DNA of 57,756 nt, taken from a phage. The stretch lies in the sequence record PV808483.1, one strand, 5' to 3'. Positions 323-21,403 of this stretch are shown here, piece after piece (position 1 is the first letter of the stretch; each line of letters opens with the position of its first letter). The position numbers were made by a program, and so were the translations under genes. The notes beneath the pieces are model-generated. The model saw nothing but the letters and a program-made list of their open reading frames with translations, was not told the DNA's origin and searched no databases.

Positions 323-959
323 TATGAAAATTTCAGACCGGGCTAAAAGGGCTGCTCTGGAGTTGTCGCCGGAACAGCTCAAATTCGCCAACCTGTGGCT
401 AGATCGTGTCAATAACGGCTTCAGCAACGCTGAGTGCGTTTTAGAGGCTTATCCGGGACACACTGATGCAGCCGCTGCTAACGTCACCGCACACCGCCTC
501 CTGTCGAATACGAAGGTGTTGAACTATCTGGACGCGATGGGAAGTCATGCGCTTGAGTCTGTCGGGGAATCGTTAACGAGTCGTGTCGAGTGGTGGAAAC
601 GAGCGGCAAGCACGGCTGAAGAATTACTGGAACCGTATTGTCAGCGCGTTATCGTCCCTGGTGAAGACGACACAGAAGCGAAACACCTGTGGGTGAACAG
701 TACCGACGATATTCCCAGTCATCTGCAACAGTACGTAGTTTGCTACAAACGTTACATACTGGGTGGATACATTCTGGTGACACGTGAACTGTTCGACCCG
801 AAAACTCGTGCAAAAGCGTCTGAACAACTGGATAAAATCACCGGGAACAGTATCGATCGTGTGGAATTGTCTGGCGTGGTTGGTAACGTGGTTCAGAGTG
901 TTCCTGAAGGTGCAACCATCGACGACATCGCGCAACTGTATCAGAAGGCGCTTAAATAA
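323..959 (+). CDS. terS: terminase small subunit (Terminase_2/P27-like)
   Basis: ORF 207..959; N-terminal pattern LSPEQLKFANLWL...NGFSNAECVLEAYPG...AHRLLSNTKVLNYL resembles small terminase family; start placed at ATG 323 with GGAG about 9 nt upstream. Confidence 0.7.
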
Positions 960-1048
960 CGTCGGAAACCGTTTGCGTTTTCGATAAACATGGTCGGGTG
1001 GTGCGAGTGTACTGGCGAGGGTGTTTAGTTCGTCAGAGAGCGTTTTAG

Positions 1049-1077
1049 AAAGCCCGGTTAATTCCGGGCTTTTTTTA
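1049..1077 (+). terminator. rho-independent terminator AAAGCCCGG-TTAATT-CCGGGCTTT followed by T-run
   Basis: GC-rich hairpin plus TTTTTTT directly after the terS stop. Confidence 0.75.
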
Positions 1078-1311
1078 GTAGAATGTTTTAGGTGCGGGAA
1101 GATTTGTATTAATGAAACTTTTCGCGTCATCAAGAGTTCTAAAGAAGCCATAATCTTTGTGATTCATTGTCACGTTGTATGGGTAATCACAGTTAAAACT
1201 TAAAGTCATAAAATAGATCCTGCCAATTTCTTTACCATTCTCAAAAATCGCAAGGTCTTTCGTAAGCAGTGAACCTGTTCCTAAAGCATATGCTGGTTCA
1301 AAAGTTTTCAT
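1075..1311 (-). CDS. hypothetical protein
   Basis: 78-aa ORF in the reverse-strand cassette downstream of the promoter at 1496..1540. Confidence 0.35.
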   Translation of the reverse strand: MKTFEPAYALGTGSLLTKDLAIFENGKEIGRIYFMTLSFNCDYPYNVTMNHKDYGFFRTLDDAKSFINTNLPAPKTFY

Positions 1312-1495
1312 TTGAATTCATACTCCACAATACCAAATTCGTTAATAATTTGTGCTTTATAAAAACAACCTTTCGATGCCAGTTTATAGGCTTGTTCCAT
1401 AGTCATTTCACGATATTCAGCCATTGAATTTTCTGTTTCTAATATCATCAGTGTAACCATTTTCCGGTTCCTCACAATTCGTTGTCTATGTGAGT

Positions 1496-1540
1496 AATTT
1501 ACACTTCCCTGTGTAATCCGTCAAGAATTATTTTAAATTT
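1496..1540 (-). promoter_or_regulatory. sigma70-like promoter with AT-rich UP element: TTTAAAATAATTCTTGACG, 17-bp spacer, TAAATT
   Basis: Copy of the conserved 27-bp element; -35 TTGACG is the reverse complement of 1519-1524. Confidence 0.55.
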
Positions 1541-18304: not shown

Positions 18305-18711
18305 TTAACGTAAAAGTTAATAAGGTTGACAACTCACTACGTATGGTATTCGGTTGGGGTAGTATCTGTAAAAAACGTAATCAGGAGACAGGTCAGTTAG
18401 AAATTTACACAGACACGGACAACGAGCAATTTCCCGAGGATGTCACCCTGAAAGCATGGATGGACTTCATGAATTCTGATCAGCGCATCATGGACAATAT
18501 GCACAATGAACAACCTGTTGGGAAAGTTGTGTTTGCGTTCCCGATGACTGAAGACATTGCGGCAAGTTTTGGGCTGGTTGATAAACTGGATCAGACAGGC
18601 GTCATTGTTGGTACGTTGATAACTGATGACGAAGTTTTGAAAAAGTTTCAGACTGGTGAATATACGGGATATAGTATCGGTGGAACTGCATATTATGAGG
18701 ATGTGGAATAA
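18301..18711 (+). CDS. XkdF-like protein, putative prohead protease
   Basis: 136 aa; FGWGS...MH...GKVVF...GYSIGG pattern; immediately precedes scaffold-like and capsid genes. Confidence 0.5.
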   Translation: MINVKVNKVDNSLRMVFGWGSICKKRNQETGQLEIYTDTDNEQFPEDVTLKAWMDFMNSDQRIMDNMHNEQPVGKVVFAFPMTEDIAASFGLVDKLDQTGVIVGTLITDDEVLKKFQTGEYTGYSIGGTAYYEDVE

Positions 18712-19970
18712 TGCGTACAGATGGTACTAATCATTTACGCCGCGCTAAATCGATGAAGATCGGTTTTCTGTCCGGCGTGACAAAACCTGCTCACGAGGGA
18801 GCAAACGCTCTTGTTCTTAAATCACATTCAGAACCGCCTGCTGTTGTTCTTTTAAAGTCAACATTCAGTGCGGCACTGGCTGAAAAAGAACTTGAACAGA
18901 AAGTTCGTGATTTCCTCTCTAATTCGTGGATGTTGAACGATGCGCTTTATGAAGCAGCAGAGGATATTGCAAAAGATGATTCTGTTACCGATAAACAAGC
19001 AGCATTGCGTGACGCGGTAAATGAATATATTATAACGTTGCAACAGGCCGCTGGTATTTCGATGAATAAAGCGAAAGGTGGCAAAACTGAAGACGGTAAA
19101 GTTTTTCCGGCATCTGATTATGCATATGTACCAGATCCAGAAAAACCTTCAACCTGGAAACTTCGTTTAACAGCTACCCCTGGCGGTGAACCTGATGCGC
19201 GTATTGTAGGCGCTGCACTTGCTGCATTAGGTTCGGGTTATCGCGGTAACAAAGTTGAAATCCCTGAAGCCGATTTAGCAGGTGTGAAAAACAAAGTCCG
19301 ATCCGCGTGGAAAAAATTACACCCGGACCAGGAAGTACCTCAAGTTTTAAAAACGGCAGAGGAAATCGAAATGTCCGAACTGGAAAAATACAAAGCCCTG
19401 GCTGAGATGAACGACGTCCATAAGGCGTATCATAATTCTCTGCCTGAATCTGATCAGGAAGCATTCCGTAAAATGGATGCCACTGCTCGCGATGCCCTCG
19501 TGACGATGGCTAAACAGGCTGATGAATCGTTTACCACGATTGCGGGTCAGGTTGTTCAGAAATCTGTAGCTGGTCCGATGTATGACGTTCTGAAATCTCA
19601 GGACGAACAACTTCGCAAAGCACAGACCGAAGCGGCACTGGCGAAAGCTAAAGAAACCGTGAACGCTGATTTCGCACATATTCCGGGTGAAATGGTACAG
19701 AAAACCCAGATGGTCATGACTCTTGAGCGTTTACCGGAAGCGGATCGTAACTTCCTGGTTGAAAAACTCAAACAGGCCGATGAACTCTGGAAAGCACGTA
19801 AAGAGCCAGCAGCGCCGAATGGCAGTGGTAAAGGTTCCAGTGCACTGGAAGACATGATCAACGAATGGCTGAAAGCAAATCCGGGTAAAACACGCACCCA
19901 GGCTATGCAGGCAGTTTCTGCAACTAAAAAAGGTCAGGAAGCAATCGAAGCGATGCGAGGTGACGAATAA
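18711..19970 (+). CDS. putative scaffolding protein
   Basis: 419 aa, charged and alpha-helical; sits between protease and capsid genes. Confidence 0.5.
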   Translation: MRTDGTNHLRRAKSMKIGFLSGVTKPAHEGANALVLKSHSEPPAVVLLKSTFSAALAEKELEQKVRDFLSNSWMLNDALYEAAEDIAKDDSVTDKQAALRDAVNEYIITLQQAAGISMNKAKGGKTEDGKVFPASDYAYVPDPEKPSTWKLRLTATPGGEPDARIVGAALAALGSGYRGNKVEIPEADLAGVKNKVRSAWKKLHPDQEVPQVLKTAEEIEMSELEKYKALAEMNDVHKAYHNSLPESDQEAFRKMDATARDALVTMAKQADESFTTIAGQVVQKSVAGPMYDVLKSQDEQLRKAQTEAALAKAKETVNADFAHIPGEMVQKTQMVMTLERLPEADRNFLVEKLKQADELWKARKEPAAPNGSGKGSSALEDMINEWLKANPGKTRTQAMQAVSATKKGQEAIEAMRGDE

Positions 19971-20380
19971 TGGCTAAGAACAGCAAAATTTACTGGAACT
20001 ATGAGCGCCCGACCCGTGCCGTTGCATCCGTGGCTATTTCGGCAGGTGTTGGTCTTGTTCTGGATACCAGTTTAGGTGACACTAACCAATGTGTACCTAA
20101 ATACAAACTCCCAACTGCTGACGGTCGTATTGACGGTGTGGCGGTTGATGATGTCGCAGCAGGTGTATTCTTTGACCTGGTGAATGAAAAAGAAAAATTC
20201 GTACCAGTAAAAGCCGCTGCAACGTTCGCCACAGGTGTTGAGCTTGCTGTTGGTGCTGACGGACGATTCCAGACTGCTACTGCTGATCAACTGGTCGTGG
20301 CTATTTCTCAAACTGGTGCCACTGCTGAAAACCAGGTAGTTACCGCATTACTTATTGCACCGTATTCTAAAGGAGCATAA
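19970..20380 (+). CDS. putative head decoration or accessory capsid protein
   Basis: 136 aa, Ala/Val/Gly-rich; directly precedes the major capsid gene. Confidence 0.4.
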   Translation: MAKNSKIYWNYERPTRAVASVAISAGVGLVLDTSLGDTNQCVPKYKLPTADGRIDGVAVDDVAAGVFFDLVNEKEKFVPVKAAATFATGVELAVGADGRFQTATADQLVVAISQTGATAENQVVTALLIAPYSKGA

Positions 20381-20383
20381 CCG

Positions 20384-21403
20384 ATGAGTTACAAACAGAA
20401 TTTTCGCGACGTTGGCGCACCAGATATATTCCTGTCTAACTTTTCTGTAAGTTACTGGCAGGATACATCACTGTTTGTCGGTACTCGTTATTTCCCGGTA
20501 GTTCCTGTTAATCAGGCTGCTGGTAAGTTTCTGACTTACCCGAAAGGTTATTTCGGTCGTCCGGTTAACTCCAAACGTGCCGAAGATGGTGTTGCTAACA
20601 CTATTGGTTACAAAACCAAAAACCAGGGTTACACCGTTGATGACGATGCGATCCGCATCTTCATTTCTGACAAAAAACGTGCAAACGTTCAGAACGGTCA
20701 GCAACTGGATATGGAAGCGTCTGCAGTAACCACGGACGCGTTGTTGATTAACAAAGAAGTGGATTTTGCTGAAAAATTCCTGACTGCTGGTAAATGGGGT
20801 CTTGATTTCCAGGGCAAAGACGCATCTCCGTCCACGGGCGAATTCCTGAAATGGTCTAATGCGAATGCCGATCCGATTGGTGATATCCTGTCACGTCGTG
20901 TTGCGTTCTCTCTGGCATCCGGTGGTCGTCGCTGGAACAAAGCACTGATGACGCTGGACGTGTATGACGCACTGACCCGTAGTCCGGCTGTTATTGACCG
21001 TATTAACGGTGGTTCTACCACTCAGAATCCGGGCATCGTGACTAAACAGGCACTGGCTGCACTGCTGGAAGTTGACGAACTGGAAATCATGCAATCTGTG
21101 GTCAATATGGCTGCTGATGGCGTTGAAGACGGTGACGGCAATCCGCTGTCAGACTTCCAGTTTGCTAAAACTGGTGTACTGATGCTCAACTATGTTGAAC
21201 CGACTGTTGGCAATATGAAACCTGTTGCGGCTGCAGGCTTCGTGTGGAACGAATTTATCGGTCTGGGCGTTAACAACGGTCCGTCTATCCGTACCTATCC
21301 GGGTGTTGAAGGTCGTCGTGGTAATTTCGTTGAAGCGGAATTTGCCATTGATGTTCAGATGGTTGCACCTGACCTGGGCGTTCTGTTCTACGACGCGGTT
21401 TAA
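20384..21403 (+). CDS. major capsid protein
   Basis: 339 aa; GGAG upstream; strong terminator follows; position after protease and scaffold. Confidence 0.65.
   Translation: MSYKQNFRDVGAPDIFLSNFSVSYWQDTSLFVGTRYFPVVPVNQAAGKFLTYPKGYFGRPVNSKRAEDGVANTIGYKTKNQGYTVDDDAIRIFISDKKRANVQNGQQLDMEASAVTTDALLINKEVDFAEKFLTAGKWGLDFQGKDASPSTGEFLKWSNANADPIGDILSRRVAFSLASGGRRWNKALMTLDVYDALTRSPAVIDRINGGSTTQNPGIVTKQALAALLEVDELEIMQSVVNMAADGVEDGDGNPLSDFQFAKTGVLMLNYVEPTVGNMKPVAAAGFVWNEFIGLGVNNGPSIRTYPGVEGRRGNFVEAEFAIDVQMVAPDLGVLFYDAV

What the first reader, a model, noticed from the sequence alone, without database searches (positions are those of the whole stretch)
323..21403. Morphogenesis genes dispersed among six reverse-strand early cassettes
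The small terminase, large terminase, portal, MuF-like protein and protease-scaffold-capsid block are each separated by reverse-strand gene cassettes with their own promoters (1075-4474, 8748-10625, 12149-13978, 16240-17560). Further reverse-strand units interrupt the tail block (26624-27416) and follow it (33998-36037). Head genes are normally contiguous, so this mosaic layout is unusual and implies interleaved early and late transcription.
Basis: seen in the sequence. Interest (0 to 1): 0.5.

Follow-up and report, generated by a model that had tools for sequence, protein, structure and literature searches.

The report
Accessory gene islands splitting phage head genes
This coliphage's head-building genes really are broken up by blocks of small opposite-strand genes that carry their own host-type promoters, but this layout is the already published hallmark of the 9NA-like phage group and not a new discovery.

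Summary
The window is Escherichia phage vB_EcoS_PJ16, a 9NA-like siphovirus (Nonanavirus/Sashavirus). TerS, TerL, portal, MuF and the protease-to-capsid block are separated by four reverse-strand cassettes at 1075-4677, 8748-10619, 12149-13978 and 16240-17443.

The reverse genes are real: dN/dS is 0.04-0.25, 28 of 32 have Shine-Dalgarno sites, and Pfam finds RdgC and dUTPase. Each cassette carries a conserved promoter, TTAAAATAATTCTTGACGGATTACA-N-TAnnnT. There are 13 copies where none is expected. Cassette 1 has only internal copies. The same promoter heads the replication genes.

Forward structural units instead carry a -35-less CGTGnTAnAnT element and are bracketed by terminators. This supports interleaved early and late transcription but does not prove it.

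Both the layout and the promoters recur in 9NA, Sasha, Solent, Klebsiella BU9 and two E. coli Sashaviruses. The layout, with different promoter sequences, recurs in part in a Vibrio phage.

Cassette content turns over, and homology breakpoints are enriched at the regulatory elements. The "fifth" unit is a T5orf172 homing-endonuclease-like gene plus an Imm-like gene. The "sixth" is the tailspike, a structural gene.

Casjens et al. 2014 already reported the interspersed small genes.

The parts
324..959 (+). Small terminase gene
   Evidence: phrog_51 at 9e-11. 83-97% identical in 9NA, Sasha, Solent and BU9.
1075..4677 (-). Reverse cassette 1: 13 small genes, including RdgC at 2021-2935
   Evidence: Annotation. 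RdgC Pfam 2e-113. Patchy presence in relatives. The TerS-to-TerL interval ranges from 0.9 to 5.5 kb across genomes.
1490..1538 (-). Early-type promoter inside cassette 1 (drives 1460 down to 1075)
   Evidence: Exact match to AATTCTTGACGGATTACAC. TTGACG-17-TAAATT.
3765..3813 (-). Early-type promoter inside cassette 1 (drives 3738 downstream)
   Evidence: It is also a homology breakpoint with 9NA and 536P12.
1049..1072 (.). Bidirectional terminator hairpin at the TerS / cassette 1 convergent junction
   Evidence: Folds at -19.2 kcal/mol (+) and -15.5 kcal/mol (-), z about -4.3 to -4.6, with U-runs.
4698..4710 (+). Candidate late promoter of TerL (CCCGTGGTAAACT, extended -10 type)
   Evidence: The core GTGGTAAACTGTACAGAAC is identical in five genomes while the flanks diverge; the upstream CCC is not conserved in 9NA, Sasha or Solent. 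It lies 42 nt upstream of the start codon.
4742..6505 (+). Large terminase gene
   Evidence: Terminase_6N is weak, below Pfam's cutoff. 92-99% identical to the annotated TerL of relatives.
6513..6582 (+). Terminator hairpin (6513-6530) directly followed by a plus-strand early-type promoter (6534-6582): a PeSL-like composite
   Evidence: Sasha has a gene inserted exactly between the two halves.
6667..8536 (+). Forward accessory block f1 (4 genes of unknown function)
   Evidence: Only unknown-function PHROGs, apart from one weak structural-protein hit at 0.00046 for 6667-7365. No Pfam hit for the three tested. Absent from BU9 and partly from 9NA.
8723..8742 (+). Terminator at the f1 / cassette 2 convergent junction
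   Evidence: -18.5 kcal/mol, followed by U6.
8748..10619 (-). Reverse cassette 2 (7 small genes)
   Evidence: Patchy in relatives. dN/dS 0.10-0.25.
10644..10692 (-). Early-type promoter of cassette 2
   Evidence: Conserved in 9NA, Sasha, Solent, BU9, BDX09P1 and 536P12.
10710..10721 (+). Candidate late promoter of portal (CACTGATATAAC)
   Evidence: Conserved block in five genomes. The holin gene carries the same motif at 36010-36021.
10761..12116 (+). Portal gene
   Evidence: Portal_Mu 7e-23.
12123..12144 (.). Bidirectional terminator at the portal / cassette 3 junction
   Evidence: Found on both strands. Folds at -14.3 and -16.0 kcal/mol.
12149..13978 (-). Reverse cassette 3 (5 genes, including dUTPase at 13475-13978); the most conserved cassette
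   Evidence: dUTPase Pfam 7e-19. All five genes are present in 9NA, Sasha and Solent, and four in BU9.
12866..12914 (-). Internal early-type promoter of cassette 3
   Evidence: Exact motif match; sequence context.
14008..14056 (-). Early-type promoter at the head of cassette 3
   Evidence: TTGACA-18-TAACAT.. Conserved in relatives.
14086..15241 (+). Forward accessory block f2 (DUF6378 protein, NinH-like protein, two small ORFs)
15243..15254 (+). Candidate late promoter of MuF (ACGTGATATAAT), followed by a hairpin at 15256-15279
   Evidence: Hairpin.
15284..16243 (+). MuF-like head morphogenesis gene
   Evidence: Phage_Mu_F 1e-10.
16240..17443 (-). Reverse cassette 4 (5 small genes); overlaps the MuF stop codon by 4 nt with no terminator between
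   Evidence: Wholly replaced in BDX09P1.
17444..17956 (.). 513-nt non-coding region. Two copies of the early-type promoter point outward (minus at 17542-17590, plus at 17884-17932) and form a 48-nt inverted repeat. Direct repeats and an A/T-rich tract lie between them.
17957..18304 (+). Extra gene ahead of the protease; weakly related to the T5orf172-type genes of relatives; not a head gene
   Evidence: tblastn 27-46% to 9NA gp46, Sasha gp06 and Vibrio gene 01. No Pfam or PHROG hit. Not found at this position in 9NA, Sasha, Solent or BU9.
18301..21403 (+). Protease (XkdF type), 419-aa protein, 136-aa scaffold or decoration protein, major capsid protein
   Evidence: The protease-to-MCP interval is constant at 1672-1686 nt in all genomes.
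21423..21446 (+). Terminator after the major capsid gene
   Evidence: -18.1 kcal/mol, followed by U7.
26624..27416 (-). Inserted unit: T5orf172 / treble-clef homing-endonuclease-like gene (26624-27235) plus Imm_superinfect gene (27237-27416)
   Evidence: Pfam T5orf172 2e-08 and Imm_superinfect 1e-16. phrog_681 at 1e-58. The homology breakpoints sit a few nt from the terminator (26551) and at the late element (27509).
27441..27489 (-). Early-type promoter of the Imm / endonuclease unit
   Evidence: Exact motif match; sequence context.
27507..27519 (+). Candidate late promoter of the tape measure gene (CCCGTGTTAAACT)
33998..36037 (-). Tailspike gene (structural, reverse strand)
   Evidence: phrog_4217 at 3e-258. 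9NA's tailspike has the same position and orientation.

Best explanation
The window is a 9NA-like virulent siphovirus. Its morphogenesis module is not one late operon. It is cut into at least eight short rightward units: TerS, TerL, portal, MuF, protease-MCP, connector-MTP, chaperone, and TMP-tail tip.

Shown in the sequence:
- Most rightward units end at an intrinsic terminator hairpin.
- The slots between them hold islands of small accessory genes. Four islands lie on the opposite strand and two on the same strand.
- The islands are headed by one highly conserved promoter: an A/T-rich UP-like tract, then TTGAC(G/A), then GATTACA, then 17-18 nt of spacing to TAnnnT. It usually sits 59-64 nt upstream of the first start codon. 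Cassette 1 has only internal copies, and block f2 has none.
- The same promoter heads the replication gene clusters.
- The morphogenesis units lack this promoter. They have instead a conserved -35-less element, (C)CGTGnTAnAnT or CACTGATATAAY, about 40 nt upstream of the start codon.

Inferred:
- The conserved promoter is read by unmodified host sigma-70 RNA polymerase as soon as the DNA enters the cell. The islands and the replication genes would therefore be early.
- The -35-less element would need a phage-made factor or a modified polymerase. The head and tail genes would therefore be late.
- The terminators, two of them bidirectional, would keep the converging early and late transcripts apart.

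Supported by comparison:
- The slots are fixed across the lineage, but their content turns over quickly. Joints are enriched at the promoters and terminators, so the regulatory elements also act as module boundaries for gene exchange.
- One slot, between the chaperone and the tape measure gene, has been filled in this phage by a homing-endonuclease-like gene with an Imm-like gene.
For: Identity and lineage trait:
- The first 22 kb of the window align end to end with OQ955832.1, a record of the same length as the window.
- The same slots hold reverse cassettes in 9NA, Kpn BU9, Sasha and Solent. BDX09P1 and 536P12 are collinear with the window, and their differences in the head region fall within the cassettes, accessory blocks and non-coding slots.
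- Vibrio phage 1.270.A, whose portal is 43% identical, has reverse cassettes after portal, after MuF and within the tail genes.

The reverse genes are real:
- dN/dS is 0.04-0.25 against natural orthologues.
- 28 of 32 have a Shine-Dalgarno motif.
- Pfam finds RdgC, dUTPase, Imm_superinfect and T5orf172.
- GC skew flips in each cassette.

Promoter family:
- 11 matches to a 19-mer within 3 mismatches, against 0 expected. There are 13 good copies, all correctly oriented upstream of genes.
- The family is conserved at the same slots in six relatives.
- Two copies head the helicase-to-DNA-polymerase cluster, and two more head right-arm gene blocks.
- An identical core of about 26 nt stands upstream of a DUF1902 gene in contigs that share no similarity with this phage and look like prophages from bacterial isolate genomes. 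This argues that host RNA polymerase alone reads the promoter.

Late-type element:
- There are conserved blocks upstream of TerS, TerL, portal, protease (in the relatives), the connector genes and TMP.
- In the window, 4 of 11 regex matches lie 40-44 nt upstream of a same-strand start codon.
- In the Vibrio phage, 5 of 5 exact CGTGATATACT copies are on the plus strand, each just upstream of a forward gene; four of those genes are head-tail or tail genes.

Terminators.

Turnover:
- The presence/absence matrix is, and the slot sizes (0.9-5.5 kb for TerS-to-TerL) are.
- 17 of 85 homology breakpoints fall within 15 nt of a regulatory element, against 5% expected (P about 1e-6).
- Cassette GC is 0.41 against 0.47 for the structural genes.
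Against: - No transcript data exist for this phage group in the searchable library. 'Early' and 'late' rest on promoter class and on analogy.
- The generic sigma-70 scan is not enriched over shuffles: 44 sites against 38.6 +/- 6.4. The argument depends on the specific conserved family.
- Cassette 1 has no recognisable promoter at its head in this phage (4678-4741), although relatives have one there.
- A plus-strand early-type promoter at 17898 points into the protease-MCP block. The strand-equals-time rule is therefore not clean.
- The late element is short and degenerate. Some matches fall inside coding sequence, and no late activator or sigma factor was identified.
- The breakpoint enrichment is inflated in two ways. 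Breakpoints favour gene boundaries in any case, and some of the elements were found through their conservation.
Confidence: 0.68

Rival explanations
1. The conserved promoters are simply strong constitutive sigma-70 promoters. The cassettes would then be expressed throughout infection, or with no temporal distinction from the structural genes. The layout would be only a by-product of where insertions are tolerated.
For: - A plus-strand copy of the same promoter sits 59 nt upstream of 17957-18304 and would read into the protease-MCP block.
- No late regulator was found.
- The same promoter core works in a prophage context upstream of a DUF1902 gene.
Against: - The plus-strand copy before the protease block is confined to the E. 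coli sub-clade and comes with an extra gene. 9NA, Sasha, Solent and BU9 have CCCGTGGTTAACT there instead.
- The structural units consistently lack the TTGAC element and share a different conserved element. This holds even in a Vibrio relative whose head proteins are about 40-50% identical.
Confidence: 0.2
2. The interruptions are mainly the work of selfish mobile genes, free-standing homing endonucleases that insert between conserved genes. They would not be a regulated set of accessory islands.
For: - 26624-27235 has T5orf172, MUG113 and treble-clef zinc-finger domains.
- Its homologues sit at different sites in relatives: Sasha gp06 after TerL, 9NA gp46 before the major tail gene, and Vibrio gene 22 after MuF.
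- 17957-18304 is a weak relative of the same genes.
Against: - Only one or two of about 40 interspersed genes are endonuclease-like.
- The four head-region cassettes carry RdgC, dUTPase, membrane proteins and small proteins of unknown function. They occupy the same slots across the whole lineage.
Confidence: 0.08
3. The reverse-strand ORFs are annotation artefacts and the head genes are effectively contiguous apart from spacer DNA.
For: - Most cassette proteins have no known function.
- One annotated reverse ORF, 21752-22189, looks spurious. It has no Shine-Dalgarno site, no promoter and no family hit, and its composition is odd.
Against: - There is purifying selection in the reverse frames.
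- Shine-Dalgarno sites are present.
- Pfam domains are found.
- GC skew reverses in the cassettes.
- Conserved promoters sit at a fixed 59-64 nt from the start codons.
Confidence: 0.02

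Closest known systems
Salmonella phage 9NA and the 9NA-like phages (Nonanavirus / Sashavirus: Sasha, Sergei, Solent, KarinMuster, AVIO78A)
   Same: - The core gene order is the same, and reverse cassettes fill the same slots.
- Structural proteins are 84-100% identical to those of Sasha, Solent, 9NA and BU9, apart from the tape measure, the tailspike and a few tail proteins.
- The early-type promoter family sits at the same junctions.
[quoted passage not shown]
   Different: - Cassette content differs. For example, RdgC is in PJ16, Solent and BU9 but not in 9NA or Sasha.
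- Compared with 9NA, Sasha, Solent and BU9, PJ16 has an Imm plus endonuclease unit between the chaperone and the tape measure gene, and an extra gene with a plus-strand early-type promoter before the protease. The closest E. coli relatives share these.
- PJ16 lacks the promoter at the head of cassette 1.
- I could not read Zeng et al. 2019 (J Virol 93:e00848-19). I therefore cannot say whether the promoter families described here were already reported there.
Morons of lambdoid phages (for example HK97 and HK022; review PMC3594210)
   Same: Both are independent transcription units with their own promoter, and often a terminator. Both are inserted between genes of the virion assembly cluster, are variably present among close relatives and are spread by horizontal transfer (abstract of PMC3594210; here).
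   Different: - Morons are typically single genes expressed from the prophage.
- Here the phage is virulent, the islands hold 5-13 genes, their slots are conserved across a whole lineage, and they share one promoter family with the replication genes.
Hyperplastic regions and PeSL cassettes (early promoter plus stem-loop) of T4-type phages (PMC2839356, PMC4122927)
   Same: Both have variable non-essential genes grouped between conserved core blocks. Both have repeated, strongly conserved sigma-70-like early promoters and stem-loop terminators. In both, indel and replacement joints coincide with those elements (here).
   Different: - Only one clear composite of terminator plus promoter is present (6513-6582). 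Elsewhere the promoters and terminators lie at opposite ends of a cassette.
- The host genome is a 58-kb siphovirus, and the islands lie inside the head gene cluster, mostly on the opposite strand.
- Mini-circles were not tested.
Free-standing homing endonuclease genes of T4 and T5 type (seg/mob genes, T5orf172)
   Same: 26624-27235 carries T5orf172 / MUG113 and zinc-finger domains. It sits between two conserved essential genes, and its homologues occupy different sites in different relatives.
   Different: This applies to one unit only, plus possibly the 17957-18304 remnant. It does not explain the four head-region cassettes.

Membership tests
9NA-like phages (Nonanavirus / Sashavirus) | Nucleotide similarity and genome-wide synteny with 9NA or Sasha | tested here: met
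   Megablast gives 84-96% identity over 62-82% of the first 22 kb to 9NA, Sasha, Solent and BDX09P1. The core genes are collinear.
9NA-like phages (Nonanavirus / Sashavirus) | Canonical order of virion assembly genes with many small genes interspersed, and a reverse-oriented tailspike downstream | tested here: met
9NA-like phages (Nonanavirus / Sashavirus) | pac-site headful packaging of a circularly permuted genome | not testable with these tools
   This needs virion DNA end analysis. Citing papers report it for 9NA, Sasha, Sergei and Solent.
Moron (lambdoid sense) | Independent transcription unit with its own promoter (and terminator), inserted between virion assembly genes | tested here: met
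   Promoters. Terminators. These are sequence predictions only.
Moron (lambdoid sense) | Present in some close relatives and absent from others | tested here: met
Moron (lambdoid sense) | Expressed from a repressed prophage to the benefit of the lysogen | tested here: not met
   Neither the deposited annotation nor my family searches of selected genes show an integrase or repressor. 9NA is described as virulent. The cassettes therefore work like morons but are not morons in the strict sense.
PeSL regulatory cassettes of T4-type phages | Repeated, conserved strong sigma-70-like early promoter | tested here: met
   13 copies against 0 expected. Activity was not measured.
PeSL regulatory cassettes of T4-type phages | Promoter physically coupled to a stem-loop terminator as one small composite element | tested here: inconclusive
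   Clear only at 6513-6582. The other promoters abut the stop codon of the upstream gene with no hairpin.
PeSL regulatory cassettes of T4-type phages | Indel and replacement joints between relatives coincide with the elements | tested here: met
   17 of 85 breakpoints fall within 15 nt of an element, against 5% expected. Examples are 1069, 1537, 3786, 6535, 17564, 26551 and 27509. Caveat: breakpoints favour gene boundaries in any case.
PeSL regulatory cassettes of T4-type phages | Formation of encapsidated mini-circles by recombination between elements | not testable with these tools
   Needs PCR or sequencing of virion DNA.
Free-standing homing endonuclease gene | Endonuclease-family domain | tested here: met
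   For 26624-27235, Pfam gives T5orf172 2e-08, MUG113 2e-08 and DUF723 / treble clef; phrog_681 'endonuclease' scores 1e-58. No other cassette gene has such a domain; 17957-18304 is only weakly related by tblastn.
Free-standing homing endonuclease gene | Sporadic distribution, with different insertion sites among close relatives | tested here: met
   Homologues lie after TerL in Sasha, before the major tail gene in 9NA and after MuF in the Vibrio phage. None is at the chaperone / tape-measure site in 9NA, Sasha, Solent or BU9.
Free-standing homing endonuclease gene | Site-specific cleavage of the endonuclease-free allele, and homing | not testable with these tools
   Needs a mixed-infection or in vitro cleavage assay.

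The most novel reading that the evidence does not exclude
The regulatory grammar behind the known layout may be undescribed. It has two promoter classes.

The first is a 26-nt UP plus TTGACGGATTACA promoter that host polymerase would read. The second is a -35-less CGTGnTAnAnT element.

At several junctions the two stand back to back. These junctions are portal and TMP in this phage, and TerL in relatives. At each one, 22-23 nt separate the shared A/T tract from the TG of the late element. The A/T tract would therefore lie at about -37 to -50 of the late promoter.

Such a pair could act as a built-in early-to-late toggle, because polymerase bound at one promoter would occlude the other.

The same conserved elements would also serve as portable recombination joints, PeSL-like, that drive accessory-gene turnover inside the head-gene cluster of a siphovirus family. 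That family reaches from enterobacterial to Vibrio phages.
Probability: 0.3. Interest if true: 0.5.

Novelty: already known. Interest (0 to 1): 0.28.

Why it matters
The layout matters mainly as a worked example. A virulent siphovirus tolerates about 11 kb of fast-evolving accessory genes inside the 21-kb region that holds its head genes, normally the most conserved and tightly packed part of the genome.

The conserved promoter set gives a ready map of transcription units for the 9NA-like phages. Several of these phages are used as therapy or biocontrol candidates (PJ16, Sergei, AVIO78A).

The map also makes the early/late question testable with a single RNA-seq time course.

The cassettes are the obvious place to look for host-takeover and anti-defence genes in this group.

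The finding does not reveal a new kind of system.

Tried and rejected
1. Generic sigma-70 and terminator scan of 1-19 kb. The counts were not above shuffles: 44 against 38.6 promoters and 18 against 17.3 terminators. It was useful only for individual sites.

2. Using the window-versus-GenBank substitutions as evidence of selection. They are biased towards third codon positions in the reverse frames as well. However, the window differs from OQ955832.1 by about 2.5% substitutions with no indel at all over 57,756 nt, and intergenic DNA is changed at the same rate. I do not trust this as natural divergence, so I used natural relatives instead.

3. Reading Zeng et al. 2019. Neither the DOI nor the PMC id is held. 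Papers that cite it quote only its packaging and taxonomy results.

4. Searching the open literature for the promoter sequence gave 0 papers.

5. Looking for a late regulator among the right-arm genes by Pfam. Only a ParB-HTH protein and a SLOG-domain protein turned up, with no sigma factor or known activator.

6. The motif TGTACAGAAC as an independent late signal. It has only three copies, one of them inside the portal gene on the minus strand. It is better read as the sequence just downstream of the -10 at TerL and the chaperone gene.

7. A late-type match upstream of the reverse gene 56672-57469. It lies only 25 nt from the start codon and overlaps the Shine-Dalgarno site, so I dropped it.

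8. The reverse ORF 21752-22189 as a seventh cassette. It has no Shine-Dalgarno site, no promoter and no family hit. It lies in a 338-nt insertion relative to Sasha and is probably not a gene.

Full report
**What the window is.** The first 22 kb of the window align over their full length with Escherichia phage vB_EcoS_PJ16 (OQ955832.1). That record is 57,756 bp, the same length as the window, and is classified under Nonanavirus. The window differs from the record only by substitutions: about 2.5%, no indels, nine Ns at 8680-8697. Gene boundaries are unchanged. The next closest records are E. coli Sashaviruses (BDX09P1, 536P12, KarinMuster), Salmonella phages Solent, Sergei, Sasha and 9NA, and a group of Klebsiella phages.

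| Coordinates | Strand | Content |
|---|---|---|
| 324-959 | + | TerS |
| 1075-4677 | - | cassette 1, 13 genes |
| 4742-6505 | + | TerL |
| 6667-8536 | + | four accessory genes (f1) |
| 8748-10619 | - | cassette 2, 7 genes |
| 10761-12116 | + | portal |
| 12149-13978 | - | cassette 3, 5 genes |
| 14086-15241 | + | four accessory genes (f2) |
| 15284-16243 | + | MuF |
| 16240-17443 | - | cassette 4, 5 genes |
| 17444-17956 | . | 513-nt non-coding region |
| 17957-18304 | + | extra gene |
| 18301-21403 | + | protease to major capsid protein |

- The head-gene calls stand. Portal_Mu scores 7e-23, Phage_Mu_F 1e-10 and the XkdF-type protease 6e-08; Terminase_6N is weak. TerS matches phrog_51 and the major head protein matches phrog_1005 at 4e-81.
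- There are 14 strand switches in the first 36.4 kb. Of the 21.1 kb from TerS to MCP, 7.9 kb is reverse-strand genes and 3.0 kb is forward accessory genes.
Cassette 1 runs to 4677, not 4474. Cassette 4's genes end at 17443.

**Are the reverse ORFs genes?** Yes.
- GC skew turns negative in each cassette and positive in each forward block.
- 28 of 32 reverse genes have a Shine-Dalgarno tetramer at the right distance.
- Against natural orthologues in 9NA, Sasha, Solent or BU9, the individual reverse genes give dN/dS of 0.04-0.25. TerL, portal, MuF and MCP give 0.04-0.09. The pooled 'rev' figure in that call also includes four connector genes, so I rely on the per-gene values.
- Named functions are few: RdgC (2021-2935, Pfam 2e-113) and dUTPase (13475-13978, 7e-19). 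The rest match PHROGs of unknown function or nothing at all.
- One annotated reverse ORF, 21752-22189, is probably not a gene.

**The two units in and after the tail genes are different things.**
- 33998-36037 is the tailspike (phrog_4217, 3e-258). It is a structural gene. The 9NA paper already described its reversed orientation.
- 26624-27416 is a T5orf172 / MUG113 / zinc-finger gene, a homing-endonuclease type (Pfam 2e-08; phrog_681 at 1e-58), plus a T4 Imm-like superinfection immunity gene (1e-16).
- Neither gene is at this site in 9NA, Sasha, Solent or BU9. Homologues of the endonuclease gene sit at other sites: after TerL in Sasha, before the major tail gene in 9NA, and after MuF in a Vibrio phage.
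- The insertion is flanked by the chaperone terminator (homology ends at 26551) and by the tape-measure upstream element (homology resumes at 27509).

**Promoters.** Printing the junction sequences exposed one repeated element. On the strand of the downstream genes it reads TTAAAATAATTCTTGAC(G/A)GATTACA, then 17-18 nt of spacing to TAnnnT.
- A 19-mer from it has 11 matches within three mismatches, against 0 expected. With two slightly more divergent copies there are 13.
- Every copy lies upstream of a gene in the correct orientation. Ten of the 13 have the -35 element 59-64 nt from the start codon.
- Minus-strand copies head cassette 2 (10678), cassette 3 (14042, with an internal one at 12900), cassette 4 (17576) and the Imm / endonuclease unit (27475). 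Two more lie inside cassette 1 (3799, 1524).
- Two tandem copies (44562, 44625) head the helicase-to-DNA-polymerase cluster. Plus-strand copies head right-arm blocks at 50548 and 52306.
- Plus-strand copies also head the accessory block 6667-8536 (at 6548, directly after the TerL terminator) and the extra gene 17957-18304 (at 17898).
- The element looks like a consensus sigma-70 promoter with a proximal UP-like A/T tract. This reading rests on established promoter knowledge, not on a test here.
- It is conserved at the same slots in 9NA, Sasha, Solent, BU9, BDX09P1 and 536P12.
- A scan of viral contigs found the exact 20-mer in other 9NA-like genomes. It also found it, with an identical core of about 26 nt, in contigs that share no similarity with this phage and look like prophages from bacterial isolate genomes. 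There it stands 65-66 nt upstream of an 85-aa DUF1902 gene. This suggests host polymerase reads it without help from the phage.
- In this phage the head of cassette 1 (4678-4741) has no such promoter, although every relative examined has one there.

**A second, different element precedes the forward structural units.** I aligned the upstream regions of conserved forward genes across five genomes. The conserved blocks are:

| Gene | Conserved block |
|---|---|
| TerL | CCCGTGGTAAACTGTACAGAAC |
| TerS | CCCGTGGGTATCT |
| protease (in the four relatives) | CCCGTGGTTAACT |
| connector genes | CGTGCTAATAT or CGTGATAGAAT |
| TMP | CCCGTGTTAAACT |
| MuF | ACGTGATATAAT |
| portal and holin | CACTGATATAAY |

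- All read as TGnTAnnnT, an extended -10, with no TTGACA-like -35. They lie 37-51 nt upstream of the start codon.
- In the Vibrio phage 1.270.A (portal 43% and MCP 51% identical), five exact copies of CGTGATATACT are all on the plus strand, each just upstream of a forward gene. Four of those genes are head-tail or tail genes.
- That phage's reverse cassettes carry their own TTGACA-N17-TAnnnT promoters.
- The element is short, and some matches fall inside genes. I therefore treat it as a good candidate late promoter, not as established.

**Terminators.** Stable hairpins with U-runs close most forward units: after TerL (6513-6530), f1 (8723-8742), MCP (21423-21446) and MTP (25728-25745). Sequence-identified hairpins that I did not fold lie after the chaperone gene (26521-26540) and before the connector genes (22510-28).
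- The TerS / cassette 1 junction (1049-1072) and the portal / cassette 3 junction (12123-12144) have hairpins that can work in both directions.
- MuF and cassette 4 overlap by 4 nt with no terminator, so antisense read-through into MuF is possible there.

**Lineage comparison.** The slots are fixed and the content is not.
- Core structural proteins are mostly 84-100% identical across 9NA, Sasha, Solent and BU9; the tape measure, the tailspike and a few tail proteins are lower. Cassettes 1, 2 and 4 are patchy. Cassette 3 is largely conserved.
- The TerS-to-TerL interval ranges from 0.9 kb (Sasha) to 5.5 kb (Solent). The protease-to-MCP interval is constant at 1672-1686 nt.
- Between genomes that are more than 95% identical (BDX09P1, 536P12), every non-matching stretch in the head region falls in a cassette, an accessory block or the non-coding slot after the capsid gene.
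- Homology breakpoints collected from six relatives fall within 15 nt of an early promoter, late element or terminator in 17 of 85 cases, against 5% expected (P about 1e-6). This figure is inflated, because breakpoints favour gene boundaries in any case.
- Cassette genes have lower GC (0.41) than structural genes (0.47).

**Most likely mechanism.**
- Shown: the head and tail genes are split into many short, separately terminated units. The slots between them hold accessory islands that carry their own conserved sigma-70-type promoter, shared with the replication genes.
- Inferred: the islands are transcribed early by host polymerase. The structural units are transcribed later from the -35-less elements with the help of an unidentified phage factor. 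The terminators insulate the converging transcripts.
- The geometry at portal and TMP here, and at TerL in relatives, is regular. 22-23 nt separate the A/T tract from the TG of the late element. The A/T tract of the early promoter would therefore lie at about -37 to -50 of the divergent late promoter. This invites the idea of a shared UP element and mutual occlusion, which is speculation.
- Confidence in the overall picture is about 0.68. The timing claim is the weakest step.

**Comparison with what is known.**
- The layout itself is published. Casjens et al. [quoted passage not shown]
- Zeng et al. 2019 analysed the group's genomes in detail. I could not read that paper.
- In function, the islands resemble lambdoid morons (PMC3594210). 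They also resemble the hyperplastic regions with PeSL promoter / stem-loop cassettes of T4-type phages (PMC2839356, PMC4122927).
- They are not strict members of either class. The phage is virulent, so there is no prophage expression. Only one clear composite of terminator plus promoter exists (6513-6582).

**Verdict.** The feature is already known as a trait of the 9NA-like phages. What may be new is the explicit two-class promoter map and the link between regulatory elements and mosaic joints, and that needs checking against Zeng et al. 2019 and testing by RNA-seq. Interest 0.28.

Noticed in passing
whole window; Ns at 8680-8697: The window has the same length as GenBank OQ955832.1 but differs by about 2.5% substitutions with no indel at all. 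Coding and intergenic DNA are changed at the same rate, and most coding changes are synonymous. There are also nine Ns. This does not look like natural divergence, so I did not use it as evidence of selection.
   Followed up: partly
window 17444-17956: A 513-nt non-coding region lies between cassette 4 and the head block. Two outward-facing copies of the early-type promoter form a 48-nt, 96% inverted repeat (17540-17587 and 17887-17934). Between them lie a 47-nt direct repeat (17584-17630 and 17647-17693) and A/T-rich palindromic tracts. Relatives also have a non-coding region of about 400 nt here. It could be a regulatory hub or an origin.
   Followed up: partly
window 57517-57659 (minus strand) and 17604-17620: An iteron-like repeat, ACAACGTGCAYTAGCTG, occurs in five copies just upstream of the TerS region and once in the 17.6-kb non-coding region. 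A seventh match at 3 mismatches lies at 11987-12003 inside the portal gene. That is 7 matches against 0.37 expected. They are candidate binding sites for a regulator, for replication initiation or for packaging.
   Followed up: partly
loci L012-L014, L028, L029, L031, L032, L034, L035, L049 (IMG/VR contigs of about 6-41 kb): The same promoter core of about 26 nt, TTTAAAATAATTCTTGACGGATTGCA, occurs in contigs that share no similarity with this phage and look like prophages from bacterial isolate genomes. In most of them it stands 65-66 nt upstream of an 85-aa DUF1902 gene. Either the promoter module itself moves between phages, or the two have converged to a striking degree.
   Followed up: partly
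window 4445-4741: This phage lacks the early-type promoter at the head of cassette 1. Every relative examined has one just upstream of TerL. The segment that includes gene 4483-4677 has no counterpart in the relatives examined, and I found no alternative promoter for genes 4677 down to 3774.
   Followed up: partly
window 21752-22189: The annotated reverse ORF PJ16_048 has no Shine-Dalgarno site, no promoter and no family hit. Its protein is rich in Cys, Arg, Leu and Thr. It lies mostly in a 338-nt insertion relative to Sasha, part of which resembles BU9's reverse cassette in the same slot. It is probably a decayed remnant and not a gene.
   Followed up: partly
window 15243-15283: The candidate MuF promoter (ACGTGATATAAT) is followed at once by a 9-bp hairpin (15256-15279) and a U-run that ends 4 nt before the MuF start codon. 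This could be an attenuator or a structure that controls translation. Sasha and Solent annotate a terminator at the same place.
   Followed up: no
locus L004 (Vibrio phage 1.270.A) 3998, 17011, 19350, 19851, 23536; also 8347-8431, 19275-19384, 23465-23595: A distant relative has its own versions of both promoter classes. Five exact CGTGATATACT copies lie upstream of forward genes (four of them head-tail or tail genes), and TTGACA-nn-GTAAC-N-TAnnnT promoters lie upstream of its reverse cassettes. The two-class arrangement therefore looks ancient in this lineage.
   Followed up: partly
window 27551-30118: The tape measure gene is 2568 nt here against 2916 nt in 9NA, Sasha, Solent and BU9. It is only 52-64% identical to them, while the neighbouring tail genes are 98-100% identical to those of Sasha and Solent. 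This points to an exchanged or shortened tape measure and probably a shorter tail.
   Followed up: no
window 51902-53136: Two right-arm genes lie on either side of the early-type promoter at 52306. The upstream gene encodes a SLOG-family (YAcAr) protein (51902-52297). The gene the promoter drives encodes a ParB-HTH protein (52369-53136), the only recognisable DNA-binding candidate for a transcription regulator that I found.
   Followed up: no
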